From positions 1,170,001 to 1,202,000 of the forward strand of contig NC_010655.1 in the NCBI RefSeq assembly GCF_000020225.1: 32,000 nt of DNA. The letters are read 5' to 3'. The position numbers and the translations under genes are program-made. The notes below the pieces were generated by a model. It saw nothing but the letters and a program-made list of their open reading frames with translations, searched no databases and was not told the DNA's origin. This document shows, piece after piece, positions 698 through 29,711 of this stretch; positions within the stretch are counted from its first letter, which is position 1; each line of letters starts with the position of its first letter. Origin of the DNA: Akkermansia muciniphila ATCC BAA-835 (GTDB lineage Bacteria; Verrucomicrobiota; Verrucomicrobiia; Verrucomicrobiales; Akkermansiaceae).

Positions 698-708
698 ATC
701 CTGCGACG
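345..708. repeat. Direct repeat copy 1 (orphan Rhs core-end), homologous to 1891-2254
   Basis: By-eye alignment at a constant offset of 1546 nt (for example gatccatctgccgtcttttgggttgtaaaagcggtaatt at 386 versus gatccacctgccgtctttggggttgtaaaagcggtaatt at 1932). Most positions are identical over about 360 bp. Similarity stops where the AT-rich sequence begins on both sides. Confidence 0.9.
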
Positions 709-910
709 CTAGTTACAAGTAGCTACGGTCATTCTATTTAAGGATTTTTAGGGAATCCACATTTTTTATGATTTTTTGTCATCTTTGATACAATTGTTCT
801 GATACTATTATATCATTGGAAAATCTTCCGATTCAATTCTCTTCCTGTATTCTTTATAATACACTAGCTTCTTATAAAATAAGTCTGAAAAGATTTTTTT
901 CATGATTATT

Positions 911-1213
911 TCAATTAGAATCAGATTTATTTTTTATTTTTTTCAAGACATATGTTATTCTGAAACATTCAATGACTATAATGAGATAACCAAGAATTAA
1001 TACTGTATATGATATTAAAAGTTCATTCGAAAAGTTTTCCCATAATAGATTTATACCATGATACATTGTTGACAAAATTCCAATTATTCCAGAGATCAGA
1101 AATAAATAAATTGTGAGTTTGATAATTGGAAAAGGGAAGTTATTAAATGAAAAATTAAGAGTATTTTTTTTAACCAAACAAGAATTCTTAAAAATAGGAT
1201 TACAAAAACACAT
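911..1213 (-). CDS. Small two-TM membrane protein, candidate immunity protein for the Rhs tip
   Basis: 100-aa ORF with an ATG start, 85 nt downstream of the rhs stop on the same strand, with the same AT-rich composition as the rhs tip. It has two hydrophobic stretches (IIKLTIYLFLISGIIGILSTM and LLISYTVLILGYLIIVIECF). The position matches the usual toxin-immunity gene order. No family was recognised. Confidence 0.55.
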   Translation of the reverse strand: MCFCNPIFKNSCLVKKNTLNFSFNNFPFPIIKLTIYLFLISGIIGILSTMYHGINLLWENFSNELLISYTVLILGYLIIVIECFRITYVLKKIKNKSDSN

Positions 1214-1298
1214 CCATAAACTAATTCAAAATATTCATATACAGTTAAAGGAGACTCAGGGTAAATCATAATACAGGTAACTAATTATATTTCGTTCA

Positions 1299-4200: not shown

Positions 4201-7088
4201 TAGGTGTTCCTCGTGTAAATGACGCCACCGGTGGTGTTGGGGACGCCCGTGCGCAGGGTTTCCCCGGCTCCGTTGACAATGCTGCGCTGCAGCTCGGTTT
4301 GCGTTTCCCCGGAGACGGCTTTCGTGAAGGTCCGCACACCGTCGCTGACCAGGTCGATGGCGTAGATGACGTGCCGCTGCCCCGTGCCGGATTCTTCCAT
4401 CACCGTTCCGTCCGGCGCGCTGCGCGTGATGAATGTAGCCCCGGAAGGGACGGTTTGCGTGACCGTCAAGCCGTCCTGGCTGTAGGCGTAGGTAGTGACC
4501 CGGCCCAGGACGTCCGTGGTGGAGGTTGTTCTGCCAAGAAGGTCGTAGGTGGCGCTTTCCCGCGTGGTCATCGCCCCCGTGTCTTGACGCGTGGAGAGTA
4601 CGCGCCCTGCCGCATCCCGGACGTAGGTGGTGATGGTTTCCGGCGTGATGACGGTTTCCCCGTCCATCACGGCGGAACGCGTGACTTCCACCAGTTGGCG
4701 CGCCGTGTCGTAGGCGTAGTCCGTCCTGATGCCGTTTTCATCGATTTCCCACAGCAGGCCTCCGTCGCACATCAGTTCGCGTTCCGTGAGCCGGCCGTTG
4801 CCCGCCGTCCGCTTCACCCACCGGTTCTGCGTGTCAAATTCGTAGACGGCGCTGCCCGTGAGCGCCCATTGCCCGGTGGAAAGCAGGAGGTAGTTTTCTT
4901 CCCTGACGCGCTGCCCTTCCGCCGTGATCCAGGTGACGGCGCGCGTGCTTTGTCCCGGCACGGCTTCTCCGTTGATGCGCGTTTCCACCGTTTCCGTGTA
5001 GAGGGCGCCGTGCTCCGTCGTGGCCGCGTAGTCGTGCCACGTTTGCACGCCGTCGAGGTCCCGGCTGAACCGCGTGCGTCCGCGGGCATGGATGTTGGCG
5101 GCTCCGGCCAGCCATTGTTCCTCCGCCGTCAGGCGCGTGCCCGTCACGCCCAGTCCGGTGACCCGCCGTTCCGTTCTTTTGATGTGGTTGGCCGTCGTGT
5201 ATTTCCAGGTGGTGGATGTCAGCGTTTTGACGTGTCCTTCCAGCGGAAGCAGGTCTGCCGTTTCCGTGGCGGGTTCGTTGCTGAAGTCGGCTTCTCCCGA
5301 ACAGGCGTAGGTGTAGCGCGTGATGCGCCTGCCGCTTTCCGCCCACGGTTCGTCCCGGCTGAGCAGGCGGCCGTAGAGGTCATAGGCGTAATGAGTCTGG
5401 CTGCCGCCCGGGGCCGTTTCCGTTCTGAGCCGTCCGCACTGGTCGTAGGCGTATTGCGTGGTTTGCTCCTCCGGGCTTCCGTAGCCTTCCGCCAGCGTGA
5501 GCAGCAGGTCGCCCACGTCCGTGGTCTGGTAGATGGCGCAGGTGCGCGCCGCCACGATTCCGTTTTTGGAGATTTCCGTGACCAGCTGCCAGACCGAGTT
5601 TTCCGGTTCCAGCTCCGTGCGCGTGCGGAGGGTCGTGAGGGCGTCTTCCCCCGTGCCCTGCCGCATGTTCCACGCCAGGCCGTCGTTCCACCAGGTGACG
5701 GCGTAGGGCTGCCTGGCAGGCGCCTGTTCCGTGATGGTGAACTTTTCCTCAGCATCCAGGGAAAGAATAAATGTTTTCAAGGGAGCGCCCGTAACGGTAT
5801 AAAATCCCTGTTCGTCCGTTCCGGTGATTTGCCCAGGGGTATAGAGCGCGATGGTGTAGCCCGTGGAGGTGACGTTTTCCACGTTGAGCAGGCCGTCCCA
5901 CAGGTTCCAGATTTGCCTCAGCGAGCCGTCTCCGGCATGCCTGACGTCCAGATAGGATGACGCGTTGGAGATGACCTGCCTGTCCGTGGTGGTGTAGGAG
6001 AGGAGCGTTCCCGTTTCCGCCGAGAAGAGGTATTGGCTGCCGTCTTCCACCACCCAGCGCAGGCAGGATTGTCCTTCCACCGTGGCCAGCGCCGCACGCC
6101 CTCCGCCCGACGTGTCCACCCCGATGGGCAGCACGGACCCGTCCGTGTAGCAGCGCATGGCAATCACCCGGTCTCCCTGCACCAGGTTGAACCGCACTCC
6201 CGGCGCAATGCCCCCTTCCGGCACGTCCAGACGGCTGTTCAGGGGATGGTTGTAGGCCAGCGAGGAGGGGCTTTCCAGGCCGGAGACGTTTTGTTCAGCC
6301 CTCAGTTCCACCCTTCCGGCCGGAAGGCCCCCAAGTCCACGGAACGCTCCGAAGTTGCAGGACCAGTACATCAGCGTGGCCGTGCTTTCCGCCGTCACGC
6401 TGCACCCCGCCGAGCTGTAGTTTCCCAGGGCGCCGCTTTCCATGCCCGCCTCAGGGCACGACCGGGCCTGCGGCGGGGAGGGCGGCGTTCCGCCGCTGTT
6501 GTCGCACGTGTCTCCCTCGCAGGGACACGGTTCGGGTTCTTTCCTGCCCCCCGGTTCCGTCGGCACCACGTCGATGCTGTAGTTGCAGATGGAGGTGTTG
6601 CCGCTTGCCGGATTGTAGTCGATGTTGGTCTGGCTGACTTCCCAGCTGTAGGTGCCGGAGGGGAGCTGCGCCCCGCCAGTCCCCGTGTGGTATTTGTGCC
6701 CGCCCTGTTCGCCCGCCGTCTGCGGGTTTTCTTTCAGATCCACCTGCGCCACCACGTTGCCGCCGGAGTCCTTCACCTCCAGGATTCCCCAGTCGTCCAC
6801 CCCAAGGAAGAGCGAGCAGGTGCCGTAGAGTTTTTTGCCCTCCGCTCCTTCCGGGATGGTGAATGTCCCGTGCGCGCTGTGCCCGTCCGCCGACGTGCTC
6901 GGCGGCCCCACTTTCCTTTCCTCATGGATCCGGATCGCTTCAAACGGCAGCGGATCGGGATCCGGCTGGCCGGATAAGCGCACGCGGCGAGTAGAGCCGG
7001 ATTGGCTGGCACCGGAACCAAAGTACCATTTCCGGTAAGCGGGAACGGCAGAACGATGGGCGGAGGAGGAACGATGAGGCGGATTCAT
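1299..7088 (-). CDS. Rhs/YD-repeat protein with C-terminal polymorphic toxin domain (ORF stays open up to a TTG at 7157; first ATG at 7088)
   Basis: 1952-aa ORF. Many YD repeats are present (YAYDQCGRLRTE, YAYDLYGRLLSR, YDAFGNKTKE, YGYDLRGRNT, YSYDNIGNRK, YDYQGRRYMK). The Rhs core-end signature is YNYRFYNPKDGRWINRDPIAEQGGWNLYGFVDNGVVFSIDYLG. The track start at 7157 is a TTG; MNPPHRSSS at 7088 is the first ATG. Confidence 0.93.
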   Translation of the reverse strand: MNPPHRSSSAHRSAVPAYRKWYFGSGASQSGSTRRVRLSGQPDPDPLPFEAIRIHEERKVGPPSTSADGHSAHGTFTIPEGAEGKKLYGTCSLFLGVDDWGILEVKDSGGNVVAQVDLKENPQTAGEQGGHKYHTGTGGAQLPSGTYSWEVSQTNIDYNPASGNTSICNYSIDVVPTEPGGRKEPEPCPCEGDTCDNSGGTPPSPPQARSCPEAGMESGALGNYSSAGCSVTAESTATLMYWSCNFGAFRGLGGLPAGRVELRAEQNVSGLESPSSLAYNHPLNSRLDVPEGGIAPGVRFNLVQGDRVIAMRCYTDGSVLPIGVDTSGGGRAALATVEGQSCLRWVVEDGSQYLFSAETGTLLSYTTTDRQVISNASSYLDVRHAGDGSLRQIWNLWDGLLNVENVTSTGYTIALYTPGQITGTDEQGFYTVTGAPLKTFILSLDAEEKFTITEQAPARQPYAVTWWNDGLAWNMRQGTGEDALTTLRTRTELEPENSVWQLVTEISKNGIVAARTCAIYQTTDVGDLLLTLAEGYGSPEEQTTQYAYDQCGRLRTETAPGGSQTHYAYDLYGRLLSRDEPWAESGRRITRYTYACSGEADFSNEPATETADLLPLEGHVKTLTSTTWKYTTANHIKRTERRVTGLGVTGTRLTAEEQWLAGAANIHARGRTRFSRDLDGVQTWHDYAATTEHGALYTETVETRINGEAVPGQSTRAVTWITAEGQRVREENYLLLSTGQWALTGSAVYEFDTQNRWVKRTAGNGRLTERELMCDGGLLWEIDENGIRTDYAYDTARQLVEVTRSAVMDGETVITPETITTYVRDAAGRVLSTRQDTGAMTTRESATYDLLGRTTSTTDVLGRVTTYAYSQDGLTVTQTVPSGATFITRSAPDGTVMEESGTGQRHVIYAIDLVSDGVRTFTKAVSGETQTELQRSIVNGAGETLRTGVPNTTGGVIYTRNTYNARGQLTKTQTDAGNAATTMAPTLWEYDAFGNKTKETWKLADPATTSNSRITTWSYGVEQAQDEVYRVVTATRNNSRGTTYNETQKTLASSLSSTLESKVISIDPRGNASEQWSEYGPGAVRTQKSSIPTSDITAAATVIDGFIISQTDHAGVTATHTRAYTETGVIYASTDGRGNTVTTHTDLTGRTISVTDAAGNTTSTAYGPWFDQPAVVTNALGNTTCYGYDLRGRNTAQWGTRAQPLLFGYDEADRMISLTTFREDAGDITADPTGRTDGDVTTWSYDDATGLLIRKTWADGTHEDTAYNALNFKSTLMDARGVVTTWGYNLKKGVNNSVSYSDSTPGIQYAYNHLNQLTQVTDASGSRVLTYTPCNEPDTDSITIGGSSYQLQEHYDTYGRSSGYTLKQGTDVLQEASQGYETDGRLASAGIRHGGTEQSFAYGYLAGSSLLSSLAMPDGIVRELAYEQRRNLVTAINCRLGETVLVSRSQGYDALGRPVTRTQQRGTEPARSDSFSYNGRNELTAATLGAAPYGYSYDNIGNRKTAREPAEELAYAANGLNQYTGIEESGEAPFVPTYDASGNQTLIKTSTGIWTAVYNAANRAVSFTSRDGATVVECGYDYQGRRYMKKVTQNGTVASHERYLYRGYLQIAALDMLDNRNVLRTLLWDPLEPVATRPLALAQGASLYCYGMDFNKNVSEVFDAQGTIAAAYDYSPYGIVGSTGNLVQPVQWSGEMHDEEPTLAYYNYRFYNPKDGRWINRDPIAEQGGWNLYGFVDNGVVFSIDYLGKETNEFGYTMTIPAGYIPILLIIEGSISIEKKKNCVCIEAKLRTDVGIGVGIGLKIKQKWWPILPDIEYSLKTMIAGLSNEKILKIDNCNGKTLTSYREELLGFSHRIDAGITLSSYIQASYSIDFKISSGLTLNAKPIYLTLDATEYIKIDATLKIPFIIDQNEELVNKSFNENIKIWSK
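1302..1844 (-). other. Rhs C-terminal tip (toxin) domain, 181 aa, family not recognised
   Basis: Begins immediately after ...SIDYLG; the K codon is at 1844-1842. The sequence is KETNEFGYTMTIPAGYIPILLIIEGSISIEKKKNCVCIEAKLRTDVGIGVGIGLKIKQKWW...IKIWSK. There is an abrupt switch from GC-rich core to AT-rich DNA near 1880. Confidence 0.7.
1891..2254. repeat. Direct repeat copy 2 (end of the full-length Rhs core), homologous to 345-708
   Basis: See copy 1. This copy encodes LDMLDNRNVLRTLLWDPLEPVATRPLALAQGASLYCYGMDFNKNVSEVFDAQGTIAAAYDYSPYGIVGSTGNLVQPVQWSGEMHDEEPTLAYYNYRFYNPKDGRWINRDPIAEQGGWNLY. Confidence 0.9.
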
Positions 7089-7580
7089 CAGGTATTCAAG
7101 AGTTGGGAGTAATGAATGAAGCGAGGGGTGGCCGCCCTTTCCTGATCGTTTTATCAATAGTATGATCCGAAGTCGGTGTCGATAGAATTTTATTTGTATG
7201 TTTTTGATTTTTTATAAAAGATGGTCATTATTTTACACGAAAAGATAATATTATAATTCTTACGTTCAGTGCATTCCCTTAATAGACATCAATGTTGTCT
7301 GTTTGTTAGAAAATGTTTCCCTCTCATGCTGAGCCCTTGACAGGATGCCATCCCTTCCGGGCATCAGTCTAATTCCTGTAATCAATGTTTCTTTCTCTCG
7401 AAGAAAGATGGGGGCCGTCGCTGTCGGAAGGGGGCTTGCTTAGGTTTCGTCCGGCATTTCCAAGTACAGTCTCCTGGATTACTGGGAACCTTCCAGTGTA
7501 ACATTTATTTTTTACGCTGCGCGACGATGAGGAAGCAACTGTCTGATATTTTATTCCTGGTTCAAGGAAACCTGATAATG

Positions 7581-13094: not shown

Positions 13095-13124
13095 TTTGAA
13101 TATAGGGAGGCGGACGGTACAGGC

Positions 13125-13832
13125 TTATGCCCTGCGGCGGCGCATCATCAGCGCGGCCAGTCCCAGCAGGCCCAGGGAAGCCGTGGCGGGTTCCGGGATG
13201 CTGGCGATTTCACTCATCAGTTGACCAACTTGTTCCTGGGAAAGGAGGGAGTCGTGGATGTAGAGCTGTTCGATGGATTCAGCCAGTCCTGCGTCCATGA
13301 GAATCTGATCAATTTGCTGGTTGCCGAATTTCAGGCCGCTGTTGGAATAGTACGTAGCGCTGTCTCCAAAATAGATGCGGGTGCCAAGATCTCCGGTGAC
13401 TACGGAAATGGTCAGGGAACCTTCCGTGCCCAGCGGGGTGTCAACGACGGGCCCGTTGTATGAGGTGTTGTTCCATAATCCCTGGAGTTTCCGGTCCGTG
13501 TTCAGGCCCACGCCCCAGCTTACACTGCTGTTTTTGGCGTTAAACAGAGCGGTATAGGCGTCCGGAGTGTTGATTTTGGTCAGGTCAAGAACCATCGTCA
13601 CAGACATAACGTCGCGGTTGTTGGCACCGTATCCGTTGAAGGTTATCCCGGATAACGTCAGATTGCTGTCGTCAGACGTGATGGAAACGGAATCTTTCAG
13701 GGTGCCGAAATCCGCCGTTTGGGAGGCAAAGTCCGAATATCCCACGATGGAGCTATCCAGCAGAGAGGTAGCCGCGGTAGCGCTTAGGCTCATGCCGGCC
13801 GAAAGAATCAGGGTGGATAATAATTTATTCAT
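13125..13832 (-). CDS. PEP-CTERM-anchored secreted protein, LamG/ConA-like body suspected
   Basis: Signal peptide MNKLLSTLILSAGMSLSATA (ATG 13832; the track start at 13859 adds 9 aa). The C-terminus is IPEPATASLGLLGLAALMMRRRRA, i.e. PEP motif, TM helix and Arg cluster. The pre-anchor segment IEQLYIHDSLLSQEQVGQL resembles the end of LamG-type lectin folds (from memory, not searched). Confidence 0.8.
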   Translation of the reverse strand: MNKLLSTLILSAGMSLSATAATSLLDSSIVGYSDFASQTADFGTLKDSVSITSDDSNLTLSGITFNGYGANNRDVMSVTMVLDLTKINTPDAYTALFNAKNSSVSWGVGLNTDRKLQGLWNNTSYNGPVVDTPLGTEGSLTISVVTGDLGTRIYFGDSATYYSNSGLKFGNQQIDQILMDAGLAESIEQLYIHDSLLSQEQVGQLMSEIASIPEPATASLGLLGLAALMMRRRRA

Positions 13833-13889
13833 GGTCAGTATCTTAATAAAATGATGCAAGATTCAATGTATGTACTTGTGCTTGAATAA

Positions 13890-13904: not shown

Positions 13905-14059
13905 CAAGCAATTAAAAATATTAAGAGTTAGTATATTGTATTTATAATTCATTGAAAATAATGATTTTTTAATATCTCTGGTCCTTTTGCTAAGATGACG
14001 GGTCAGTCTTTGTTATTCATTGGTTTCATGATTGATTTGGCCTCTTTTTCATTACTTGA

Positions 14060-14094
14060 CGGATTCCAAATCCGATTGGGGAATTCCAAATTCG
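14060..14094 (+). promoter_or_regulatory. Shared upstream motif, two tandem copies for the plus-strand PEP-CTERM gene
   Basis: CGGATTCCAAATCCG (14060-14074) and GAATTCCAAATTCG (14081-14094). They lie 53 and 33 nt upstream of ATG 14127 and are preceded by a TTGAC. Confidence 0.4.
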
Positions 14095-14126
14095 CTACAA
14101 GTTGCCATCCAAAAGGAATAATAAAT

Positions 14127-14867
14127 ATGAAGAAAACACTGACATTTTTAATCGCGATGGGAAGCTTTGCTGTTTCCTCGGAGGCAGCGACCGTTTTTAA
14201 TTATTACACTCCCGGTACGGATAATTACAATAGTACCATCCATGGGTTTTATCTTGGCCTGGGGTCTTCTTCCCTGGCTCCTTCCGATTCCTCTTCTCCC
14301 TCCTCCCTGTCCGGAGAGATCAGACTGGACAGTTTTACGCTGCGCGGAGCCGCCAACGGTTTGGGCGCTAATGTCACTTACGGCTTCCTGGTGCTGAATG
14401 GCTCCGACAATTCGGTCATCGGCTGGAGCACCAATACGGGAACTACTGCAGCAGGGATTAATCTGACGTTCAGTTTTTCTTCCCTGGATGGTTCTCCCCT
14501 GCTTCTTGACGCGGCATTGACATACCGTTTCCTGGCCGTGAGCCAGTCCGTGATGGACTTGATGCAGGATACGTCTAAAACGTATTTATATGCTGCGGGG
14601 GGAACAGCCGCCCCTACTGCTAACACGGAAGGAGATACCGTAACGATCAGCGGCGGATTGACTGCTCCCGGCATCCGCGGCCATTATGACGCCGAGGGAG
14701 CGCCTGGTGATTCTGTCGTTATTACGGGAGCCAACGGAACCAATACTTTCAGCTTATTATCCCCGATTTTCACGGAAATCCGAGGGGAAATGGTGCCGGA
14801 ACCAGCCACGGTTTCCCTGGGCCTGCTGGGACTGGCCGCGCTGATGATGCGCCGCCGCAGGGCTTGA
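14127..14867 (+). CDS. PEP-CTERM-anchored secreted protein
   Basis: Signal peptide MKKTLTFLIAMGSFAVSSEA from ATG 14127 (the track ORF starts at 13995). Ser/Thr/Gly-rich body. The C-terminus is VPEPATVSLGLLGLAALMMRRRRA. Confidence 0.8.
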   Translation: MKKTLTFLIAMGSFAVSSEAATVFNYYTPGTDNYNSTIHGFYLGLGSSSLAPSDSSSPSSLSGEIRLDSFTLRGAANGLGANVTYGFLVLNGSDNSVIGWSTNTGTTAAGINLTFSFSSLDGSPLLLDAALTYRFLAVSQSVMDLMQDTSKTYLYAAGGTAAPTANTEGDTVTISGGLTAPGIRGHYDAEGAPGDSVVITGANGTNTFSLLSPIFTEIRGEMVPEPATVSLGLLGLAALMMRRRRA

Positions 14868-14896
14868 GCTTCCTGATGGCGAAAAATCGGCGGATG

Positions 14897-22134: not shown

Positions 22135-22211
<77 letters not shown>

Positions 22212-22258: not shown

Positions 22259-22710
22259 ATGGAAAAGCATCCGGCGAGTATTGGGAGTCTGTTGTTTCTG
22301 GGAGTTTTTGTATTCGGGGAACTGGCGCCCAAGAGGGTTGGAATGTGTGCTCCGGAAGTAATTTCCAAACTGGCGGCTGTGCCGATGAAAGCCTTTTCTT
22401 GTGCCGCAGCTCCCTTTGTATGGGTGCTTTCCAAAAGCACAGTTTTCGCATGCAATTTGCTGGGAGTCAGGAATACGACTGACAGAGTGACGGAAGAGGA
22501 AATCCGCCTAATGATTCAGGAAAATGCCCGGGATGGGGATGTGCAGGATGTGGAACGTATATTTAATTTCGGTGACCGGAATTTGGAGTCCATCATAACT
22601 TCGCGGGGGGGGATATTGCATGGCTGGATGCCAAGATGACGGAACAGCCGTGCGGTCAGGGTCAGAGGTCCGTTATCCGTTTTGGTCCTTATTATAAATG
22701 GGTAACATGA
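22259..22710 (+). pseudogene. Internal fragment of a CNNM/TlyC/CorC-family (DUF21 + CBS) gene, truncated at both ends and frameshifted
   Basis: SLLFLGVFVFGELAPKRVGMCAPEVISKLAAVPMKAFSCAAAPFVWVLSKSTVFACNLLGV...VTEEEIRLMIQENARDGDVQDVERIFNFGDRNLESIITSRG matches the last DUF21 helices and the linker of hemolysin-type CNNM proteins. The expected continuation DIAWLDAKM is in another frame after the G8 run at 22605-22612. There are no upstream TM helices and no CBS/CorC_HlyC domains. Confidence 0.6.
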
Positions 22711-22800: not shown

Positions 22801-23706
22801 TCAGTAAGCTTCATTTTGTGCTTTGCCTGCCGTTTTCGATTGTCTGAGAGGTTTTCTCTTTTGAATCTGCGGTTTCAACGGACCGTAGAAATAGGAGGCG
22901 GTGGCTCCCCCGTCAATCAGGAAGTCCGCGCCGGTGATGAAAGCCCCCTTGCCGCCCATCAGCAATTCCGCTACATGGGCTATTTCATCCGCCGTACCGG
23001 GTCTTCCTGCAGGGCACTTCGCAAACATGTTTCTGTAAAAATCACCTCTGGGACCGTTGAATTCATCGATTGCCAGAGGGGTGACTATAATGCCCGGGGA
23101 AATGGAGTTGATGCGTGCGCCTTTGGCACCCCATTTGACGGCTTCCGCCATGACACGCTTGACGTTGCAGCGTTTCGCCATCTGGTAGGCATGCAGAGTG
23201 TCCTTGATATTTCCGGGTTGGAGGAGTTCGAGGTTCAGCAATTCCTCTGTTGGAGTCATGGCCAGTTGTTCGTCCTGTTCGGCAGTCAGAGCGGGCATGC
23301 GGTGATCGGATTGGCTGGAGATAGTTACTCCCGAGCCGCCGGGGCAAATAACTTTCCCCACCTCTTCCAGCAATACGGCGGTTCCGTAGAGATCCACTTT
23401 AAGAATGGTTTCAACGGATGCCTGGCTGGGGGAAACCCCCGCTGCATTGACGAGCATGGAAATATTGCCGTACCTCTGTGCTTCTGCAATCAAATGCAGG
23501 ATGGAGTACCGGGAAGAGAGATCCATCTCTAAGGGGATGGTGTCAAATCCGGCCTGATTCATCGTCCGGGCAATGGCATGCGCGTTCCCGATATTTTTGT
23601 CGCCAATGACGATTTTCATGCCGCTTCCTATTCTGCGGGCAATGGCCATGCCGATTTGCCCGGCTCCCGTCAATATCATGACTTTTTTGGATAGACGTTG
23701 TTCCAT
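22801..23706 (-). CDS. SDR-family oxidoreductase
   Basis: 301 aa. Rossmann motif VMILTGAGQIGMAIA, NAAG, and catalytic YQMAK. The C-terminal ITGADFLIDGG is typical of SDRs. Confidence 0.85.
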   Translation of the reverse strand: MEQRLSKKVMILTGAGQIGMAIARRIGSGMKIVIGDKNIGNAHAIARTMNQAGFDTIPLEMDLSSRYSILHLIAEAQRYGNISMLVNAAGVSPSQASVETILKVDLYGTAVLLEEVGKVICPGGSGVTISSQSDHRMPALTAEQDEQLAMTPTEELLNLELLQPGNIKDTLHAYQMAKRCNVKRVMAEAVKWGAKGARINSISPGIIVTPLAIDEFNGPRGDFYRNMFAKCPAGRPGTADEIAHVAELLMGGKGAFITGADFLIDGGATASYFYGPLKPQIQKRKPLRQSKTAGKAQNEAY

Positions 23707-23887: not shown

Positions 23888-25174
23888 TCATGGCAGCATG
23901 CCGATTCTTTTCAGCCATGTTTTGACGCCTGCGGCATTGCCCGGCATGTCAATTCCCTCATCATCGGCACGTCCGGGAGTTGTAATATCTCCTGGGTCAA
24001 GGTCTTCTGGAAGAGTTGACGGAATGTGCCGGGAATGGGGCGTAAGCCTGTAAATTTGTTGCATGGATTCGTTTAAATAAGTAGTCGCGTCATAAGTAAA
24101 GAAGGGAATGAGCGTTTTCCCTTTCAGGTCAAATGCCTCTAAAAAGGTGCAAATCACCATGGCAGGCTGATGCCACCAGATTGGAGAGCCGACGAAGATA
24201 GTATCATATTTCGCCATCAGGGAGGCTTCAGGCAAGTTAGCGACCTTTGGGCGCAGGTTTTCATAAGCTTCTTTTTTGACACGGTCGCTGTCGCGGTAAG
24301 GGTCGGCATTGTAGGCCTCGGCGGCTTCAATCCGGTAGAGATCCGCTCCGGTCAGTTTCGCAATTTGTTCCGCCACCGCTTTGGTATTGCCCGTTGCGGA
24401 GAAATAAACAACCAGCGGTTTTCCCGCATCTTGTCCGGTTCTGCGGACAACAGGCAGCCCTTTTGCCTGCAACAGCGTGTTCAGCTCTTTCCGGACTGCG
24501 TCTGCTTCCCCGGGGCCGATGTTCCTGGACACGATGTCAAGCAGCTGGTGCAGCTGTGCGGGTGTTATGCCCAGATTCAGGCAGATGCCCATGTGAGAGC
24601 GGGCCATTGGTTCCACACCGCCTATGGCCGCGAGGATGGATACGGTAGCCAATTCGCGTTCATCATAGGTCAGAACGTCCCGTTCAAAAATATCTGCAAA
24701 AAGGTGTTCTTTCAGGAAACGTTCCATGACCGGGGCAAATTCGGCATAGGCAACTTTCGGCGCATTGACGGGAATGCCGGAGATTTCCGCAAGAATGGCG
24801 CACCCGCGATCGTAGCGGCTGCGCTTGTCCTTTGTGGGGCAGGCATCTTGTCCCGGGGCATCGGCTATGCCTCGGGACTTTCTTTTATCCAGCACGGAGA
24901 TGAATGCCTGCAACCCCCTCAGGCTTCGCGGAAACCCGCAATAGGCGTAGGAATGCACTAAAACTTCCCGGATTTCATTTATCGTCAATCCACTGTCCAA
25001 GGCGGCATTCAGGGCCGGCTGCAGCTGATGCAAATCCCCTCTGCCGGTATAGGCGGCAATGGTGATGATGTGTTTCTGCCTGGAGGTCAATTCCTGGCTG
25101 GAAAGGGCGGAATTTGCCGCCAGAGCCAGCACGCACGACATCAGGCAGAACAGGACAGACGATAAAAGTTTCAT
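23888..25174 (-). CDS. Carboxymuconolactone decarboxylase-family (two CMD repeats) fused to flavodoxin, with N-terminal signal peptide
   Basis: Signal peptide MKLLSSVLFCLMSCVLALAA. CMD-like segments are GLTINEIREVLVHSYAYCGFPRS and RELATVSILAAIGGVEPMARSHMGICLNLGIT. The C-terminal KPLVVYFSATGNTKAVAEQIA...IFVGSPIWWHQPA is flavodoxin-like. Confidence 0.75.
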   Translation of the reverse strand: MKLLSSVLFCLMSCVLALAANSALSSQELTSRQKHIITIAAYTGRGDLHQLQPALNAALDSGLTINEIREVLVHSYAYCGFPRSLRGLQAFISVLDKRKSRGIADAPGQDACPTKDKRSRYDRGCAILAEISGIPVNAPKVAYAEFAPVMERFLKEHLFADIFERDVLTYDERELATVSILAAIGGVEPMARSHMGICLNLGITPAQLHQLLDIVSRNIGPGEADAVRKELNTLLQAKGLPVVRRTGQDAGKPLVVYFSATGNTKAVAEQIAKLTGADLYRIEAAEAYNADPYRDSDRVKKEAYENLRPKVANLPEASLMAKYDTIFVGSPIWWHQPAMVICTFLEAFDLKGKTLIPFFTYDATTYLNESMQQIYRLTPHSRHIPSTLPEDLDPGDITTPGRADDEGIDMPGNAAGVKTWLKRIGMLP

Positions 25175-25192: not shown

Positions 25193-26326
25193 TTACAGGT
25201 TTTTCCCGAAGAATTCCGCCAGCTTTCCGACAGCCTGATCCACGTATTCCGGCACGTAGTAGGTCTTGATATGCGTGGCGCCCGGAATGAGGAACAATTC
25301 CTTGTTGAGGGTTCCCGTGGCGCGGCTGTAGCATTGTTCCGTCATGTAGAAGGTGTCGGCTCTGCTGCCCGCCATCATCAGCAGGGGCTGGTTAATCAGG
25401 TGCATACCTTCGCTCGCGTCAAAGGCAAAGAGGTCCATCAGGCTGCTTTTGGTATAGCGGAAGGTGGAATTGGGGTGGGCGTGGCTTTGCAGATAATAGT
25501 CGTAGCCGTCCCGGTAGAGGTCAAAGGGCAGTTGGGCCGCCTGTTCCGGCGTTACTCCTTTCATGTCTCCCACGTATTCCGGCTGACCGCCTTCCGCTTC
25601 GCGCTGGCGGGCGGCGCAGGCGTCGGCAAGGCGTTCCTGCACGCTGTTGATCTGCGAGTCGAGAAACCCGTTGCGCCGGACCAGGCCGGTGTTGAACATG
25701 CTGAGCGTGGCGACTGCCTTGAAACGCTTGTCCGTCTGTGCGGTTTTCAGGGTGTAGCCTCCTCCGCCGCAAATGCCCAGGATGCCCAGACGAGAGGCGT
25801 CCGCTCCGGGATATTGCAGCAGGATGTCCGCGGCGCGGCGGATGTCTTCCATGCGGTTGGCGGGTTTGTCCGTATTGCGGGGAGCCCCTCCGCTGGCCCC
25901 CTGGTAGGCCGCGTCAAATGCCAGGCAGATGTAGCCCTGTTCCGCCATGCGCTGGCTGTAAAGTCCGGCCACCTGCTCCTTCACGCCGCCGTTGGGATGC
26001 GCCACGACAAGGGCGGGGTATTTTTTCGAGGCATCATATCCGGCGGGCGTATAAACATGGGCGGCAATTTGCAGTCCGTTCAGCGTATAGGTGATTGGAT
26101 GGATGTTGACGCGGCCTTCCATGTTTTCCGTGACGGCTCCCCGGTAAACCAGCCCCCAGGGATTGGCGTTGTGGCTTTTAATGCTTTTTGCTTCCGTAAA
26201 TGGGGTTTGGCGGGCTGGGGCTGTTGAAACGACCGGAGAATCATTTGTGTTCATTTGCTGCGCATTTAACTGGTGGTTGAAGGAAATCAGGGAAAGGGCT
26301 ATTGAAATAATGGCGTTTGTTTTCAT
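25193..26326 (-). CDS. Alpha/beta hydrolase (dienelactone-hydrolase-like), secreted
   Basis: Signal peptide [22 protein letters not shown], then [15 protein letters not shown]. The nucleophile elbow reads [12 protein letters not shown] (Cys at the GxSxG position). It sits 18 nt upstream of the CMD-flavodoxin gene, which implies an operon. Confidence 0.8.
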
Positions 26327-26385
26327 GGCATGTACTTTGCTTCCTCAAACAGTTCCCATTCTATCATGAAAGGCTCTCTTCCCGT

Positions 26386-26423
26386 CGATAGACGGATTAC
26401 AGGTTTTGCTACCATGATTACAG
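26386..26423 (-). promoter_or_regulatory. 38-bp operator-like element, copy 1 (GATTACAG direct repeat at 21-bp spacing)
   Basis: cgatagacGGATTACAGgttttgctaccatGATTACAG is identical to 28710-28747. It lies 59 nt upstream of ATG 26326. Confidence 0.6.
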
Positions 26424-26464
26424 ATGGCGGACGCAGAAAGTAAATGTGCGGGGGAGTGTGCCTG

Positions 26465-27576
26465 TCACCTGTCAAGTTTGTTCTGCCGGAGCCAGGCGGC
26501 CATATGGTCGGCAATGATGTTATTGTTTTTATCGGACATCAGAAAATGCGTATTTCCCCGGATGCCGATTTTGGGCAGTTCCACCAGAGCAGCATGGCCG
26601 CCATGCCTGTTGACGGCCTCCACAAATTTGCGTCCCATTTGCAGACGTACGCGCCAGTTTTCCCCTCCAAGCTTATCGGTGACGTTTTCAGGAATATAAT
26701 CTCCGAAGTAGAGGATGATGGGGATTTGGGTGAGCTTGTTGAATTCCTCCGGCGGAACGGCGATTCCCTTCATCGTGCCGGTGAGGCTGGGCATGTCTTC
26801 GGGAACCTCCCCTTCCGGGAAGACGTAGGTGCCCGGTTCCAGGGAAATGATGCCGCGCACTTCCGGGCTGCGGATGGCCGTCAGCCAGCCGGGGAATCCC
26901 CCTGCGGAGTGAGTGACCAGGATGCCCTTGCCCACGCGCTTGAAGAGGGCGCTCAGGGCATCGAGTTCTTTTGTCATATCGTGCGTGCCGATATCGGGTG
27001 TCATTTGTCGGAAAAACTGGTCCAGGGAATCCTTGTCCGTAGGGAACTGTACTCCCGGGTTGAATGCGGGCCATTCGCCGATCCGGAAGATGTCGAACCA
27101 GAACTGCTCGTCGGCAAGTGGCCTGATGGCGGTTTCCGCCGTCGTTCTGCCCGCCCGTCCCCGTCCTGGGAGGTCAACCAGGTAGGTGGCGTATCTTTTG
27201 CGCAGGAACATGTCATTAAAGCCCTCCCGTCCGGTGTTGTCTGCCAGCACCGGGCGGACTGTCCATAGCCATGAATGAAGATTAGAGGAAGCATGCGGGC
27301 ATCGGCCGGTATCTGGAAGTCCACGGCGGCGTGGTCGGCATGGTAACTCTGGCCGGCTTCAACTGCTTTCCCCCAGCCGGGAAAACGGCTGTTGTCATAT
27401 GTTCCCGGGCGTTGCAGAATGTTCCCGCCCACGGCAAAACTGCCCTGCCTTGCAATAAGCAGGGGGGCTTGTTCCGCAGCTGGAACAGGGGGGATGCCTC
27501 CCGCCTGAATCATGGCCGGAGGCGTGAATATCGATAAGAAAAAGGCAGGGAGGATTAACCGTTTTTTTTTCATCAT
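26465..27576 (-). pseudogene. Alpha/beta hydrolase with signal peptide, split by a frameshift near 27225-27250
   Basis: Track ORFs 27001-27576 (MMKKKRLILPAFFLSIFTPPAMIQA...LPLIFIHGYGQSARCWQTTPDG) and 26465-27250 (...REGFNDMFLRKRYATYLVDLPGRGRAGR...ILVTHSAGGFPGW...GNTHFLMSD) overlap in different frames. Together they read as one enzyme of about 370 aa with an HSAGG nucleophile elbow. Confidence 0.7.
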
Positions 27577-27635
27577 TTCATGAAGGAGACTGAGTTGTCA
27601 TGCTTTTGCAAGGGAGGAAAAGCGTGATTTGTTGA

Positions 27636-28675
27636 TTAATGGGTTGATGATTTTTCTGTGATGGGGCTTCCTCCAAACACGTCGGACATATTCATGAAGG
27701 AGAGAGCTGCGTCGATCTGCCGGACTTCATCCGCGGATAGTATTACATGGGCTGCCTCTGCGTTTTCTTTCAGTCTGGAGAACTTTCGTGTCCCCGGAAT
27801 GGGAACGATCCAGGGCTTTTTGCAGAGCATCCACGCCAGGGAAATTTGTGCCGGAGTGGCCTGTTTTTCTTCCGCCAGATTGCGGAGCAGGAGGAAGAGA
27901 TCCTTGTTGGCGTCAAAGCTTTCCGGTCTGAACTGAGGCATGGAACTGCGGTAGTCCGTCCCCGGCTCAAACGTGGAATTTAGGTTGTAGCGGCCGGAGA
28001 GCAGGCCGTTGGCCAGGGGGGAGAACGCTACAAAGCCGATGCCCAGTTCTTCCAGTACGGGAAGAAGGGATTCATGATAGCGCGCCATCATGGAATAACG
28101 GTTCTGGATGGCGGTGACCGGACATGTTACGTGTGCGCGCCGTATGGCTTCCTCCGTTGCTTCGGAAATACCCAATGCGCGATTTTGCCTTCACGGATCA
28201 ACTCCTGCATGACGCCCGCCACTTCCTCCGGCGGTACGGAATCATCCATGCGGTGCTGGTAATACAGGCCGATGCGTTCTACTCCCAGCCTTTTAAGGGA
28301 ACTTTCCACGGATTGGCGGATTGTGCCGGGGCGGGAATCGGTGATCAGCGGGTATGGTCCGGGGCCTGCCGTGCCGCTGAAACGGATTCCGAATTTGGTC
28401 GCAATAACGATCCTGTCCCGGTAGGGCGCCAGCGCTTTCCCCAGCAGTTCTTCGTTGTCGTGGGGGTGTCCGGGCGTTCCGTACACTTCCGCCGTATCAA
28501 AGAATGTATATCCCATATCCACGGCCCGGGAAAGGAGTTCCGCCATTTCCTTTTTGTCTGCGGGCGCTCCGTAGGCATGGCTCATTCCCATGCAGCCCAG
28601 GCCTATGGCTGAAACCTTCAGGCCGCTTTTGCCCAGCTCCCTGCATGTCATGTTTTGCCCGTTAATTGTTTTCAT
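27636..28675 (-). pseudogene. Aldo/keto reductase split by a 1-nt frameshift in a C/G run at 28161-28163
   Basis: Track ORFs 28127-28675 (...CRELGKSGLKVSAIGLGCMGMS...FFDTAEVYG...LYYQHRMDDSVPPEEVAGVMQELIREGKIAHW) and 27636-28175 (GISEATEEAIRRAHVTCPVTAIQNRYSMM...IPGTRKFSRLKENAEA) read as one AKR. Adding one G to CAT TGG GTA TTT restores ...IAHWGISEATEE..., matching the AKR consensus GKIRHWGLSEAS. The probable true start is ATG 28651 (MTCRELGKSG). Confidence 0.8.
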
Positions 28676-28709
28676 GCCTGCAAAACTACCATAGGATTTC
28701 TATTTTTTC

Positions 28710-28747
28710 CGATAGACGGATTACAGGTTTTGCTACCATGATTACAG
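28710..28747 (-). promoter_or_regulatory. 38-bp operator-like element, copy 2, in the divergent AKR/AraC intergenic region
   Basis: Identical 38-mer to 26386-26423. It lies 58 nt upstream of ATG 28651 and 67 nt upstream of the araC-family start at 28815. Confidence 0.6.
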
Positions 28748-28814
28748 GTTCCCGGAATGAGCTGGATAGCCGGCTCCCTTCCTGCTATGCTCCGGTCAAA
28801 AGCAGAGAAAGGGC

Positions 28815-29711
28815 ATGGGCATTATTCTGAACATGGATTCCGTAGGGGACTACAACTCCTTTTTGGGGCAGGAAACGCTGCACTCGCTGGTCAGCGTCGT
28901 TGATTTTTCCAGGGTCCCGCCGCTGCGGCATGCCCGCAAGGCTTACGGGTTCTATGCCGTTTTCCTGAAGGACCTGAAATGCGGAGACCTGCGGTACGGA
29001 AGACATTATTATGATTACCAGGAGGGAACTCTTGTCTTCGTATCTCCCGGCCAGGTGCTGGGCAATGATGACAACGGGGAATATTTCCGGGTAGAGGGCC
29101 ATGCCCTCCTGTTCCATCCCGATTTGCTCCGCGGCACCTCCCTGGGACGCAGGATGAAGGACTATACCTTTTTTTCCTATGACGCTTCCGAGTCCCTCCA
29201 TATGTCGGAGAGGGAAAGGAATTTATTCCTGAACGGCCTGACGGAGATCCGGGAGGAACTGGAACGGGGCGTTGACCGGCATACCAAGTCCATCGTGACG
29301 GCCAACATCGAAGTTCTCCTGAACCACTGCATGCGTTTTTACGACCGCCAGTTCATTACCCGCGAGAATGTGAACAGGGATGTGCTGACGGAGTTCGAAC
29401 GTCTGCTGGATTCCTACTTCGAGGGAGACAAGCCTCAGGAATGGGGGCTGCCCTATGTGCAGTATTTCGCGGATGAACTGCATCTCTCCGCCAACTATTT
29501 CGGTGATCTCGTCAAGAAAGAGACGGGAAAAACTCCCCAGGAGCATATCCATATCAAGCTGGTGGACAAAGCCAAGGAGCTCCTTTGCGCCACCAATAAA
29601 TCCGTTAGTGAAATCGCCTATGAACTGGGGTTCAAGTATCCCCATCACCTGAGCCGCATGTTCAAGAAGAATACGGGATATTCCCCGAACGAGTTCAGGT
29701 TGTCGGCGTGA
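28815..29711 (+). CDS. AraC-family transcriptional regulator
   Basis: 298 aa. The N-terminal ligand/dimerisation region is MGIILNMDSVGDYNSFLGQETLHSLVSVVDFS.... The C-terminal double HTH is YVQYFADELHLSANYFGDLVKKETGKTPQEHIHIKLVDKAKELLCATNKSVSEIAYELGFKYPHHLSRMFKKNTGYSPNEFR. Confidence 0.9.
   Translation: MGIILNMDSVGDYNSFLGQETLHSLVSVVDFSRVPPLRHARKAYGFYAVFLKDLKCGDLRYGRHYYDYQEGTLVFVSPGQVLGNDDNGEYFRVEGHALLFHPDLLRGTSLGRRMKDYTFFSYDASESLHMSERERNLFLNGLTEIREELERGVDRHTKSIVTANIEVLLNHCMRFYDRQFITRENVNRDVLTEFERLLDSYFEGDKPQEWGLPYVQYFADELHLSANYFGDLVKKETGKTPQEHIHIKLVDKAKELLCATNKSVSEIAYELGFKYPHHLSRMFKKNTGYSPNEFRLSA

What the first reader, a model, noticed from the sequence alone, without database searches (positions are those of the whole stretch)
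26386..28747. Identical 38-bp element with GATTACAG repeated at 21-bp spacing upstream of two operons next to an AraC regulator
cgatagacGGATTACAGgttttgctaccatGATTACAG occurs twice without a mismatch, at 26386-26423 and 28710-28747, in the same orientation. Each copy lies upstream of a minus-strand transcription unit. The first unit is hydrolase / CMD-flavodoxin / (SDR); the second is AKR / hydrolase.

If the AKR starts at ATG 28651 (MTCRELGKSG, the usual AKR N-terminus), the element-to-ATG distances are 58 and 59 nt. The flanking sequences are otherwise unrelated, which argues for selection on the element itself. The two octamers start 21 bp apart, i.e. two helical turns. That is the classic geometry of direct-repeat half-sites bound by AraC/XylS dimers overlapping the -35 region. 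Copy 2 sits in the divergent region shared with the araC-family gene at 28815.

Inference: this is the operator of that regulator and defines a small regulon of redox and hydrolase genes.
Basis: partly seen in the sequence, partly recalled or inferred. Interest (0 to 1): 0.65.

Follow-up and report, generated by a model that had tools for sequence, protein, structure and literature searches.

The report
Operator of an uncharacterised AraC regulator
The repeated 38-bp element is very probably the DNA-binding site of the neighbouring AraC-type regulator, placed just upstream of two promoters for detoxification-type enzymes in a gut Akkermansia; this is an ordinary kind of switch, but it has not been described for this regulator family, and the same site is kept in gut Bacteroidales.

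Summary
The 38-mer occurs exactly twice (26386-26423 and 28710-28747), in the same orientation, each upstream of a minus-strand unit.

It is not a dispersed repeat. A degenerate pattern scanned over 185,579 species genomes gave 21 hits, about 9 expected by chance. The Akkermansia genomes that had hits carried one or two copies, all in this locus.

Phylogenetic footprinting supports the operator reading:
- All 45 distinct upstream regions of AraC orthologues (62-99% identity, Akkermansia to Bacteroidales) carry the motif in the same register.
- The consensus is aTAgACggATTACgGaTt-N5-tACCattATTACnGat, two bipartite half-sites 21 bp apart.
- The target gene always lies on the TAGAC side.
- The site ends 22 nt before the Bacteroidetes -7 box (TAnnTTTG). 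In Akkermansia-type loci it ends 24 nt before a TAnnnT -10, usually preceded by TG.

This is class II activator geometry: the element spans about -35 to -72. The regulator model shows a cupin-like N-terminal domain plus a double HTH.

Extra findings: the two copies act as recombination substrates, because some strains have a precise 2,324-bp deletion of the AKR and hydrolase genes. Both of those genes are frameshifted in this window.

Binding, the transcription start sites and the inducer remain untested. Verdict: a well-supported new member of a known kind, of moderate interest.

The parts
26386..26423 (-). Operator copy 1, upstream of the DLH-hydrolase / CMD-flavodoxin / SDR unit. Predicted to span about -35 to -72 of that promoter.
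   Evidence: Exact 38-mer. PWM score 54.7 bits against a maximum of 2.1 in shuffles. Orthologous sites lie upstream of DLH genes in L006, L007, L009, L030, L039 and L056.
28710..28747 (-). Operator copy 2, in the divergent AKR / araC intergenic region. Predicted to span about -34 to -71 of the AKR promoter and about -51 to -88 of the araC promoter.
   Evidence: Exact 38-mer. PWM score 52.5 bits. The same register is found in all 45 distinct orthologous upstream regions.
26389..26402 (-). Promoter-proximal half-site of copy 1 (TAGAC-GG-ATTACAG).
   Evidence: Highest information content in the PWM of 29 non-redundant sites.
26410..26423 (-). Promoter-distal half-site of copy 1 (TACCA-TG-ATTACAG), 21 bp from the proximal one.
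   Evidence: PWM; octamer positions.
28713..28726 (-). Promoter-proximal half-site of copy 2.
28734..28747 (-). Promoter-distal half-site of copy 2. It is the half-site nearer to araC.
26358..26366 (-). Predicted extended -10 (TGATAGAAT) of the DLH-operon promoter. Predicted transcription start near 26351.
   Evidence: TAnnnT lies exactly 24 nt after the site in 11 of 11 non-redundant Akkermansia-type sites. This is an inference; no transcription start data were available.
28683..28691 (-). Predicted extended -10 (TGGTAGTTT) of the AKR promoter. It also reads as the Bacteroidetes -7 box TAGTTTTG (28681-28688). Predicted transcription start near 28676.
   Evidence: offset 23. Inference.
28763..28791 (+). 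Predicted araC promoter: -35-like TGGATA at 28763-28768 and extended -10 TGcTATGCT at 28783-28791.
   Evidence: CTGGAT/CTTGAT and a TAnnnT element are conserved at the same offsets in L003, L006, L009, L025 and L027. In Bacteroidales the -7 box lies 39-40 nt after the site. Inference.
28815..29711 (+). AraC-family regulator (298 aa), the presumed cognate binding protein.
   Evidence: Pfam HTH_18 and HTH_AraC. Structure model with a cupin-like N-terminal domain plus a double HTH, resembling Rns, ToxT, RhaR and AraC. The residues of the HTH-domain helices are invariant among 42 homologues.
27636..28675 (-). Aldo/keto reductase, first gene of unit 2. It is frameshifted here by a 1-nt deletion in a C run at about 28171. 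The likely start is ATG 28651.
   Evidence: Pfam on both halves. Intact at 346-347 aa in L001, L045 and L048.
26465..27576 (-). Alpha/beta hydrolase, second gene of unit 2. It is frameshifted by a 4-nt (CCGT) deletion at about 27227.
   Evidence: Intact in L041, L043 and L048; L045 lacks this deletion too but carries a 29-nt indel relative to the window that splits the gene.
25193..26326 (-). Secreted DLH / Peptidase_S15-type hydrolase, first gene of unit 1.
23888..25174 (-). Fusion protein of CMD (carboxymuconolactone-decarboxylase family) and Flavodoxin_4.
22801..23706 (-). SDR oxidoreductase (PRK06940 subfamily), probably the last gene of unit 1. In Alistipes its orthologues (76-82% identical) have their own copy of the site.
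   Evidence: No site lies upstream of it in the window.

Best explanation
The 38-bp element is the operator of the adjacent AraC-family regulator (28815-29711).

Anatomy. It holds two bipartite half-sites (TAsnn-N2-ATTACnG) in direct repeat, 21 bp apart. One regulator dimer would fill them, with each monomer's two HTH motifs reading the TA box and the ATTAC box, which lie about one helical turn apart.

Placement. The element sits in one fixed orientation, with its TAGAC end next to the -35 position of a promoter that has a recognisable -10 but no good -35. The bound regulator would therefore activate transcription as a class II activator, probably when its cupin-like N-terminal domain binds a small molecule.

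Targets. In this window it would drive two minus-strand units: AKR plus alpha/beta hydrolase, and DLH-hydrolase plus CMD-flavodoxin plus probably SDR. From copy 2 it may also autoregulate araC, since that site lies at about -51 to -88 of the araC promoter.

Status of the steps.
- Shown: repeat identity, conservation, orientation rule, fixed spacing, low copy number, regulator architecture.
- Inferred: binding by this protein, activation rather than repression, the transcription start sites, and the inducer (perhaps an electrophilic carbonyl, quinone or lactone compound).
For: 1. Exact duplicate; nothing else in the window exceeds 8 bits on the PWM.
2. The same motif in the same orientation lies about 65-100 nt upstream of the AraC orthologue start in 13 loci fetched by protein identity and in 45 of 45 distinct upstream regions overall (62-99% identity). 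These include Proteiniphilum, Parabacteroides and Alistipes-like contigs.
3. Other genomes also have a second copy in front of DLH-type or SDR operons, and those copies are not identical to each other: 1-6 differences in L006, L009, L025/L030 and L027/L039. Selection, not only recent duplication, therefore maintains them.
4. The target gene is always on the TAGAC side.
5. TAnnTTTG, the Bacteroidetes -7 box (PMC7366714), begins exactly 22 nt after the site in 15 non-redundant Bacteroidales sites. TAnnnT begins 24 nt after it in 11 of 11 Akkermansia-type sites, 10 of them preceded by TG. A. muciniphila uses -35/TATAAT promoters (PMC4782308).
6. No canonical sigma-70 promoter (-35 plus -10) is found at the targets, as expected for activator-dependent promoters.
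7. An unbiased pattern scan of 185,579 species genomes gave 21 hits against about 9 expected by chance. Eleven score above 30 bits, and all eleven are in Akkermansia or Bacteroidales. The Akkermansia genomes with hits have 1-2 copies, in this locus only.
8. The regulator has an AraC double HTH and a modelled cupin-like regulatory domain similar to those of RhaR and AraC. The residues of the HTH-domain helices are invariant across the family, matching the invariant ATTAC core.
Against: - There is no binding, footprint, transcription start or expression evidence. The promoter elements are inferred from conserved spacing only.
- Most related loci were fetched through the regulator gene, which biases the observed co-occurrence. 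Only the pattern scan is free of that bias, and it allows exact IUPAC matches only.
- The representative genome of the window's own species gave no hit, presumably because the region is masked. Copy number in this exact genome is therefore inferred from sister Akkermansia genomes.
- Perfect identity at positions of low information content is more than operator function needs. It points to recent homogenisation or duplication as well.
- Activation versus repression is not settled by sequence.
Confidence: 0.8

Rival explanations
1. The element is the operator of the same regulator, but the regulator acts mainly as a repressor, occluding RNA polymerase or an UP-element or -35 contact, and is released by a ligand.
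For: The site touches the -35 position. Some AraC-family proteins are dual regulators (established knowledge on AraC). Sequence alone cannot tell the sign of regulation.
Against: The site lies wholly upstream of about -34 and does not cover the -10 or the start site. The target promoters lack a -35 or -33 element, which is the hallmark of activator dependence. The strict orientation and spacing to the -10/-7 box over two phyla with different sigma factors fits a protein-polymerase contact better than simple occlusion.
Confidence: 0.12
2. The two identical copies are simply a recent local duplication or gene conversion of a promoter segment, with no binding function of their own.
For: Identity is 38 of 38, including low-information positions. 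Recombination between the copies does occur, as shown by the precise 2,324-bp deletion in L042 and L065 and the analogous deletion in L008. Within-genome copies share some states, for example both L009 copies read ACGGATTTT.
Against: Homogenisation does not explain conservation of the motif across orthologous loci down to 62% regulator identity in another phylum. It also does not explain the fixed spacing to different core promoter elements. In sister genomes the two copies differ at 1-6 positions, yet keep the core. Gene conversion is best seen as an added process, not an alternative.
Confidence: 0.04
3. The element is a dispersed repeat (REP/MITE-like), or a site-specific recombination site that bounds mobile gene cassettes.
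For: It is a direct repeat flanking a unit that is present or absent among strains. The gene units behind each copy are modular among lineages, as in L055, L006 and L008. A phage-type integrase lies near the site in L012.
Against: The Akkermansia genomes with hits have only 1-2 copies, always in this locus, and total hits are near the chance number outside the two host taxa. There are no terminal inverted repeats or target-site duplications. No recombinase is consistently linked. The crossover point in L008 lies inside ordinary short homology. Rfam gave no match.
Confidence: 0.02
4. The element is a genuine binding site, but for a different transcription factor encoded elsewhere.
For: Some high-scoring sites (L022, L023, L026, L037) have no AraC orthologue within the fetched flank.
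Against: In every locus fetched through the regulator the site sits at a fixed distance from the regulator's own promoter. In the unbiased scan, every Akkermansia site lies on a contig that carries an orthologue near one of its sites, and the Rikenella and A. senegalensis sites have one within the fetched flank. Remote sites are what one expects of additional regulon members. The half-site layout, two boxes about 10 bp apart repeated at 21 bp, fits a dimer of double-HTH proteins.
Confidence: 0.03

Closest known systems
E. coli AraC at araI1-araI2 (pBAD), with divergent araC
   Same: - Two-domain regulator with a cupin-type N-terminal domain and a C-terminal double HTH.
- Two direct-repeat half-sites about 17 bp long, spaced 21 bp, each with two boxes about one helical turn apart.
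- The proximal half-site abuts or overlaps the -35 position.
- The regulator gene is divergently transcribed from the same intergenic region.
(The AraC anatomy is from established knowledge.)
   Different: - The half-site sequence is unrelated (TAGAC..ATTACAG against TAGC-N7-TCCATA).
- Pfam does not recognise the N-terminal domain as AraC_binding.
- There is no sign of a distant O2-type half-site or looping.
- The effector is unknown and the targets are oxidoreductases and hydrolases, not sugar catabolism genes.
XylS at the Pm promoter (Pseudomonas putida TOL plasmid), with related regulators of aromatic-compound catabolism such as PobR and HpaA
   Same: - Direct repeats with 21-bp periodicity whose proximal copy overlaps the -35 position.
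- Class II activation by a ligand-bound dimer.
- Control of aromatic or lactone-type catabolic enzymes.
- The best NCBIfam hit of the regulator is HpaA, and a JGI source names a homologue 'activator of pobA'.
   Different: - All these hits lie far below the family cut-offs (57.7 against 274.65 bits), so there is no orthology.
- The motif is different.
- The host phyla are Verrucomicrobiota and Bacteroidota.
MarA/SoxS/Rob marbox promoters (class I and class II)
   Same: - An asymmetric site with two recognition elements, whose orientation and distance to the -35 position decide the promoter class.
- Copy 2 would be class II-like for the AKR promoter and class I-like, in opposite orientation, for araC.
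- The regulated genes are stress or detoxification genes.
   Different: - MarA-type proteins are monomers without a regulatory domain and bind a single 20-bp box.
- Here there are two boxes at 21 bp and a 190-aa N-terminal domain.
REP / MITE-type dispersed intergenic repeats
   Same: Short identical intergenic copies in direct orientation, with recombination between the copies.
   Different: - One or two copies in each Akkermansia genome that had a hit.
- No palindromic structure.
- Strictly tied to one regulator family and to promoter spacing.

Membership tests
AraC/XylS-family operator with a class II activator site | The adjacent regulator carries the AraC-type C-terminal double helix-turn-helix domain. 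| tested here: met
   Pfam HTH_18 (1.6e-20) and HTH_AraC (2.3e-15) at residues 219-295. PDB sequence and fold matches to the DNA-binding domains of AraC, XylR, AdpA and MarA.
AraC/XylS-family operator with a class II activator site | The regulator has an N-terminal ligand-binding and dimerisation domain, so that a dimer can fill two half-sites. | tested here: inconclusive
   The AlphaFold model (pLDDT 83.8) shows a beta-rich cupin-like domain plus helices. Foldseek matches the RhaR regulatory domain (TM 0.73 on target), the AraC dimerisation domain (0.63) and full-length Rns and ToxT. No Pfam domain is detected there. Dimerisation was not modelled.
AraC/XylS-family operator with a class II activator site | Two asymmetric half-sites in direct repeat, about two helical turns (21 bp) apart. 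| tested here: met
   ATTACnG starts are 21 bp apart in both copies and in all orthologous sites. Each is preceded by a TA box 7 nt upstream.
AraC/XylS-family operator with a class II activator site | The proximal half-site abuts or overlaps the -35 region of a promoter with a weak or absent -35, in a fixed orientation. | tested here: met
   The site ends 22 nt before TAnnTTTG in 15 Bacteroidales sites and 24 nt before TAnnnT in 11 of 11 Akkermansia-type sites. The target is always on the TAGAC side. No canonical -35/-10 pair is found. Caveat: promoter positions are predicted, not mapped.
AraC/XylS-family operator with a class II activator site | Sequence-specific binding of the regulator, and regulator-dependent transcription. 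| not testable with these tools
   Needs EMSA or footprinting, reporter fusions or RNA-seq.
REP/MITE-like dispersed repeat | Many copies scattered over unrelated intergenic sites of a genome. | tested here: not met
   The pattern scan of 185,579 species genomes gave 21 hits (about 9 expected by chance). The Akkermansia genomes with hits have 1-2 copies, both in this locus. The window has 2.
REP/MITE-like dispersed repeat | Palindromic or terminal-inverted-repeat structure, sometimes with target-site duplications. | tested here: not met
   No inverted repeat is associated with the element. The internal repeat is direct.
Cis-regulatory RNA (riboswitch or leader) | Lies within the transcript and matches a structured RNA family. 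| tested here: not met
   No Rfam hit apart from the tRNA. The element lies upstream of the predicted -10 on both sides.

The most novel reading that the evidence does not exclude
The regulator, its operators and its target cassettes form a self-contained module that crossed between Bacteroidales and Akkermansia (Verrucomicrobiota).

After transfer, the operator and its spacing to the core promoter were kept to within 1-2 bp. The core element itself was rebuilt from the sigma-ABfr -7 box (TAnnTTTG) into an extended -10 of sigma-70 type. The AKR copy in this window still reads as both.

The operator copies also serve as short homologies that delete or shuffle whole cassettes among strains. Regulon content would then evolve by operator-mediated recombination.

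If the regulator proves inducible, this would be a ready-made native inducible promoter system for Akkermansia, for which few genetic tools exist.
Probability: 0.4. Interest if true: 0.6.

Novelty: new member of a known kind. Interest (0 to 1): 0.45.

Why it matters
The result gives a concrete, testable regulon for an uncharacterised AraC subfamily. That subfamily is very common in human-gut Bacteroidales (thousands of homologues) and is present in Akkermansia. The description includes the operator consensus, the orientation rule, the predicted promoters and the member genes: AKR, SDR, flavodoxin-like, CMD and alpha/beta or DLH hydrolases.

These enzyme types suggest a response to reactive carbonyl, quinone or lactone compounds from diet or host. 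That is an area where little is known about gene regulation in gut commensals.

The conserved operator-to-promoter spacing across two phyla with different primary sigma factors is a neat natural experiment on how an activator-dependent promoter is re-fitted after horizontal transfer.

In practice, the regulator and operator pair could become an inducible expression tool for Akkermansia.

The strain-level deletion between the two operators shows that regulatory repeats shape gene content.

Tried and rejected
- Dispersed repeat: rejected by the genome-collection scan.
- RNA element: no Rfam match in the window except tRNA-Met.
- Third site in the window, for example upstream of the SDR or at the solitary GATTACAG at 7376: no PWM hit above 8 bits. 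The 7376 octamer has no partner.
- Generic sigma-70 consensus scan: no canonical promoter at either target and no convincing terminator between the units. A weak promoter-like match lies upstream of the alpha/beta hydrolase at 27601-27572.
- Naming the regulator: Pfam and NCBIfam detect only the HTH part. The best equivalogs (HpaA, RhaS, AraC) lie far below their cut-offs. PDB sequence search matches only DNA-binding domains.
- Literature: four searches on Akkermansia or Bacteroides with AraC, aldo-keto reductase, flavodoxin or regulon found no description of this regulator or motif. One candidate preprint was read and was irrelevant. Two searches failed on syntax.
- Copy number in the window's own species: not obtainable. 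The representative genome gave no hit, probably because the region is masked, so I relied on sister Akkermansia genomes.
- Direction of horizontal transfer: not tested with a rooted tree.
Full report
**1. The observation**

The 38-mer CGATAGACGGATTACAGGTTTTGCTACCATGATTACAG is present at 26386-26423 and 28710-28747 on the + strand without a mismatch. No third copy appears even with three mismatches allowed, and none occurred in 100 shuffles. GATTACAG occurs five times in the window against 0.5 expected. Four of these are the two pairs whose starts are 21 bp apart. The fifth, at 7376-7383, is solitary.

ORF listing and Pfam confirm the gene layout on the minus strand:
- SDR at 22801-23706.
- CMD + Flavodoxin_4 fusion at 23888-25174.
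- DLH/Peptidase_S15-type hydrolase at 25193-26326.
- Copy 1 of the element.
- An alpha/beta hydrolase at 26465-27576.
- An aldo/keto reductase (AKR) at 27636-28675.
- Copy 2 of the element.
- On the plus strand, a 298-aa AraC-family protein at 28815-29711.

The distances of 59 and 58 nt to the start codons hold if the AKR starts at ATG 28651. That codon aligns with the start of orthologous AKRs.

**2. Source organism**

The regulator is encoded on a 2.66-Mb NCBI chromosome (CP174100.1) and on more than a thousand assembly blocks. GTDB representative contigs titled 'uncultured Akkermansia sp.' are 92-93% identical in DNA over the locus. The window is therefore from a gut Akkermansia, probably A. 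muciniphila or a close relative.

**3. Conservation next to orthologous regulators**

The closest homologues of the regulator (72-94% identical) come from unnamed metagenome contigs. At 62-70% identity the family continues into Bacteroidales (Proteiniphilum, Parabacteroides, Tannerella and Alistipes-like), with thousands of members.

I fetched loci for eight homologues by exact protein look-up, and 80 more from metagenomes. In every one of the 45 distinct upstream regions a recognisable copy of the element lies in the same orientation and register, ending about 65-100 nt before the regulator's ATG.

Several Akkermansia-type loci also have a second copy in front of a DLH-type hydrolase operon, as the window does: L006/L007, L009-L011, L025+L030, L027+L039 and L056-L058. 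In Alistipes a copy lies in front of an operon led by an SDR 76-82% identical to the window's SDR.

In those genomes the two copies differ at 1-6 positions but keep the core. The motif is therefore maintained independently at each site.

**4. The motif**

A PWM built from 29 non-redundant sites gives aTAgACggATTACgGaTt-N5-tACCattATTACnGat. Read at 21-bp periodicity, this is a direct repeat of a bipartite half-site: a TA-containing box (TAGAC / TACCA), two bases, then ATTACnG. The two boxes are about one helical turn apart.

The first eight bases of the 38-mer (CGATAGAC) belong to the proximal half-site and are the best-conserved part.

Scanning the window with the PWM gives 54.7 and 52.5 bits for the two copies and nothing else above 8 bits. 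The maximum in shuffles was 2.1.

**5. Not a dispersed repeat**

I scanned GATRGAYGRATTACNG-N14-ATTAC over one genome from each of 185,579 species. It gave 21 hits, with about 9 expected by chance from the pattern's information content.

Eleven hits score above 30 bits on the full PWM, and all eleven are in Akkermansia or Bacteroidales (Rikenella, Alistipes, Bacteroides, Prevotella). The other ten look like chance: Bacilli, Gammaproteobacteria, Leptospirales and others.

The three Akkermansia species with hits have one or two copies, always in this locus.

The representative genome of the window's own species gave no hit, presumably because the region is masked. If only the window region is masked, this also implies no further exact copy elsewhere in that genome, but I cannot verify that.

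**6. Geometry relative to promoters**

The target gene always lies on the TAGAC side of the element.

In Bacteroidales-type loci the -7 box of the primary sigma factor, TAnnTTTG (consensus quoted in PMC7366714), begins exactly 22 nt after the end of the site in 15 non-redundant sites. No -33 TTTG lies between them.

In Akkermansia-type loci a TAnnnT hexamer (TATAAT, TAGAAT, TAGGAT, TACGAT and others) begins 24 nt after the site in 11 of 11 non-redundant sites, and 10 of these have TG two bases upstream. In the AKR copy of the window the offset is 23. A. muciniphila promoters show -35 and TATAAT signals in Cappable-seq data (PMC4782308).

In window coordinates:
- The extended -10 elements are at 26366-26358 (TGATAGAAT) and 28691-28683 (TGGTAGTTT).
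- Copy 1 spans about -35 to -72 of its promoter, and copy 2 spans about -34 to -71.
- Predicted transcription starts are near 26351 and 28676.

A generic -35/-10 consensus scan finds no canonical promoter at these places, as expected for activator-dependent promoters.

On the regulator side the spacing is also fixed. The -7 box begins 39-40 nt after ATTACnG in 15 Bacteroidales loci. The Akkermansia loci have a CTGGAT/CTTGAT -35-like element and a TAnnnT element at equivalent offsets, at 28763-28768 and 28783-28791 in the window. Copy 2 is therefore at about -51 to -88 of the araC promoter. That position and opposite orientation recall class I sites, so autoregulation is possible.

**7. The regulator**

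Pfam and NCBIfam recognise only the C-terminal AraC double HTH. No equivalog is approached.

An AlphaFold model built from 42 homologues (pLDDT 83.8) shows a beta-rich cupin-like N-terminal domain, linking helices and the double HTH. Foldseek finds full-length Rns, CsvR and ToxT, the regulatory domains of RhaR (TM 0.73 on target) and AraC (0.63), and the DNA-binding domains of MarA, AdpA and AraC.

The residues of the HTH-domain helices are invariant among the 42 homologues, which fits the invariant ATTAC core.

**8. Mechanism proposed**

A ligand-responsive dimer of the regulator would fill the two half-sites. From the promoter-proximal half-site it would contact RNA polymerase at promoters that lack a -35 element. 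This is class II activation, as at araI1-I2/pBAD and XylS/Pm (established knowledge).

The regulon in this window would be two units: AKR with alpha/beta hydrolase, and DLH-hydrolase with CMD-flavodoxin and probably the SDR.

Across taxa the sites precede combinations of AKR, SDR, Flavodoxin_4 or FMN-reductase, CMD, cupin, RibD_C-like, alpha/beta or DLH hydrolases and an MFS transporter. This points to handling of reactive carbonyl, quinone or lactone compounds. The inducer is a guess.

I put about 0.8 on 'operator of this regulator'. Given that, I put about 0.85 on activation over repression.

**9. Why 38 of 38 identical?**

Operator function does not need identity at low-information positions. 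Two conspecific contigs (L042 and L065, 99% identical to the window) carry one hybrid copy and lack exactly the 2,324 bp between the copies, that is, the AKR and the alpha/beta hydrolase. L008 shows the analogous deletion relative to L006/L007 in an 84%-identity lineage.

The copies therefore recombine, and gene conversion is a plausible cause of the perfect identity. Some states are shared by both copies within a genome but differ between genomes, which fits this.

**10. Decay of unit 2**

In the window the AKR is split by a 1-nt deletion in a C run at about 28171. This deletion is found only in this assembly and L002.

The alpha/beta hydrolase is split by a 4-nt deletion of one CCGT unit at about 27227. 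That deletion is shared with L001 and L002 and is absent in L041, L043, L045 and L048.

Several other 1-nt homopolymer deletions are private to this assembly, so the AKR frameshift may be an assembly error. The CCGT deletion is seen in an independent short-read assembly and is probably real.

**11. Comparison and novelty**

Functionally this works like the AraC/XylS class II paradigm. All the sequence-testable membership features are met; dimerisation and binding are untested.

No paper in the searchable library describes this regulator or motif. It is a new member of a known kind.

The less ordinary aspects are two. First, the operator and its spacing are kept across two phyla whose core promoters differ, which suggests horizontal transfer followed by re-fitting of the -10 element. 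Second, the operator copies act as substrates for cassette deletion.

Noticed in passing
window 26424-28709; L042 1497-1534; L065 5896-5933; L008 versus L006/L007: Some strains of the same species (99% identical) lack exactly the 2,324 bp between the two 38-mers and keep one hybrid copy. The AKR and alpha/beta hydrolase genes are thus deleted by recombination between the operators. An analogous deletion exists in an 84%-identity lineage.
   Followed up: yes
window ~28171 (AKR) and ~27227 (alpha/beta hydrolase): The AKR is frameshifted by a 1-nt deletion in a C run, private to this assembly and L002. The hydrolase is frameshifted by loss of one CCGT unit of a short tandem repeat. That loss is shared with L001 and L002 and absent in L041, L043, L045 and L048 (L045's hydrolase is split by a separate 29-nt indel relative to the window). 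Unit 2 looks dispensable or decaying in this strain.
   Followed up: yes
window 22868, 23861, 27562, 28171: Four single-base deletions relative to several conspecific contigs, three of them in homopolymer runs (22868 is not). The one at 22868 changes the C-terminal ~20 residues of the SDR. This pattern suggests long-read assembly errors in the source genome.
   Followed up: partly
window 22259-22663: The CNNM/CBS/CorC transporter gene is truncated to 126 aa. L001 has about 1.1 kb more here and an intact 437-aa gene.
   Followed up: partly
window 22135-22211 and the neighbours of L003, L009, L012: A tRNA-Met gene borders the cluster. The genes flanking the regulator cluster differ among Akkermansia-type lineages: GH31 here, glutamate synthase in L009, and a phage-type integrase in L012. 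The regulator and SDR are 62-82% identical to Bacteroidales proteins. Together this gives an island-like, horizontally transferred look.
   Followed up: partly
L068 5829/5892; L069-L078 (e.g. L069 5830/5893); L016 7835/7896: In several Bacteroidales loci two full sites lie in tandem, 61-63 bp apart. That gives four half-sites, roughly in phase with the 21-bp period, between the regulator gene and its divergent target.
   Followed up: partly
window 28681-28688: The predicted -10 of the AKR promoter (TGGTAGTTT) also matches the Bacteroidetes -7 consensus TAnnTTTG (TAGTTTTG) at nearly the Bacteroidales offset (23 against 22 nt). It may be a relic of the donor promoter, or chance.
   Followed up: partly
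window 1-7157: A 1,952-aa RHS-repeat protein lies on the minus strand. Its 3' end runs into a low-GC stretch (30-40% against ~63%), which holds a 300-nt direct repeat (339-638 and 1885-2184, 88% identical). This is typical of Rhs toxin tips with orphan toxin and immunity cassettes.
   Followed up: no
window 13123-13196 and 14796-14869: A 74-nt inverted repeat (95% complementary) turns out to be the conserved PEP-CTERM sorting tails of two divergently oriented paralogous genes (13125-13859 minus, 13995-14867 plus). It is not a mobile element.
   Followed up: partly
L055 1090-3644: In a 93-95%-identity lineage, an extra AKR and a 427-aa membrane protein of unknown family lie between the alpha/beta hydrolase and a DLH-like hydrolase gene that carries its own copy of the site (L055 1286). 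Cassettes appear to be added as well as lost.
   Followed up: no
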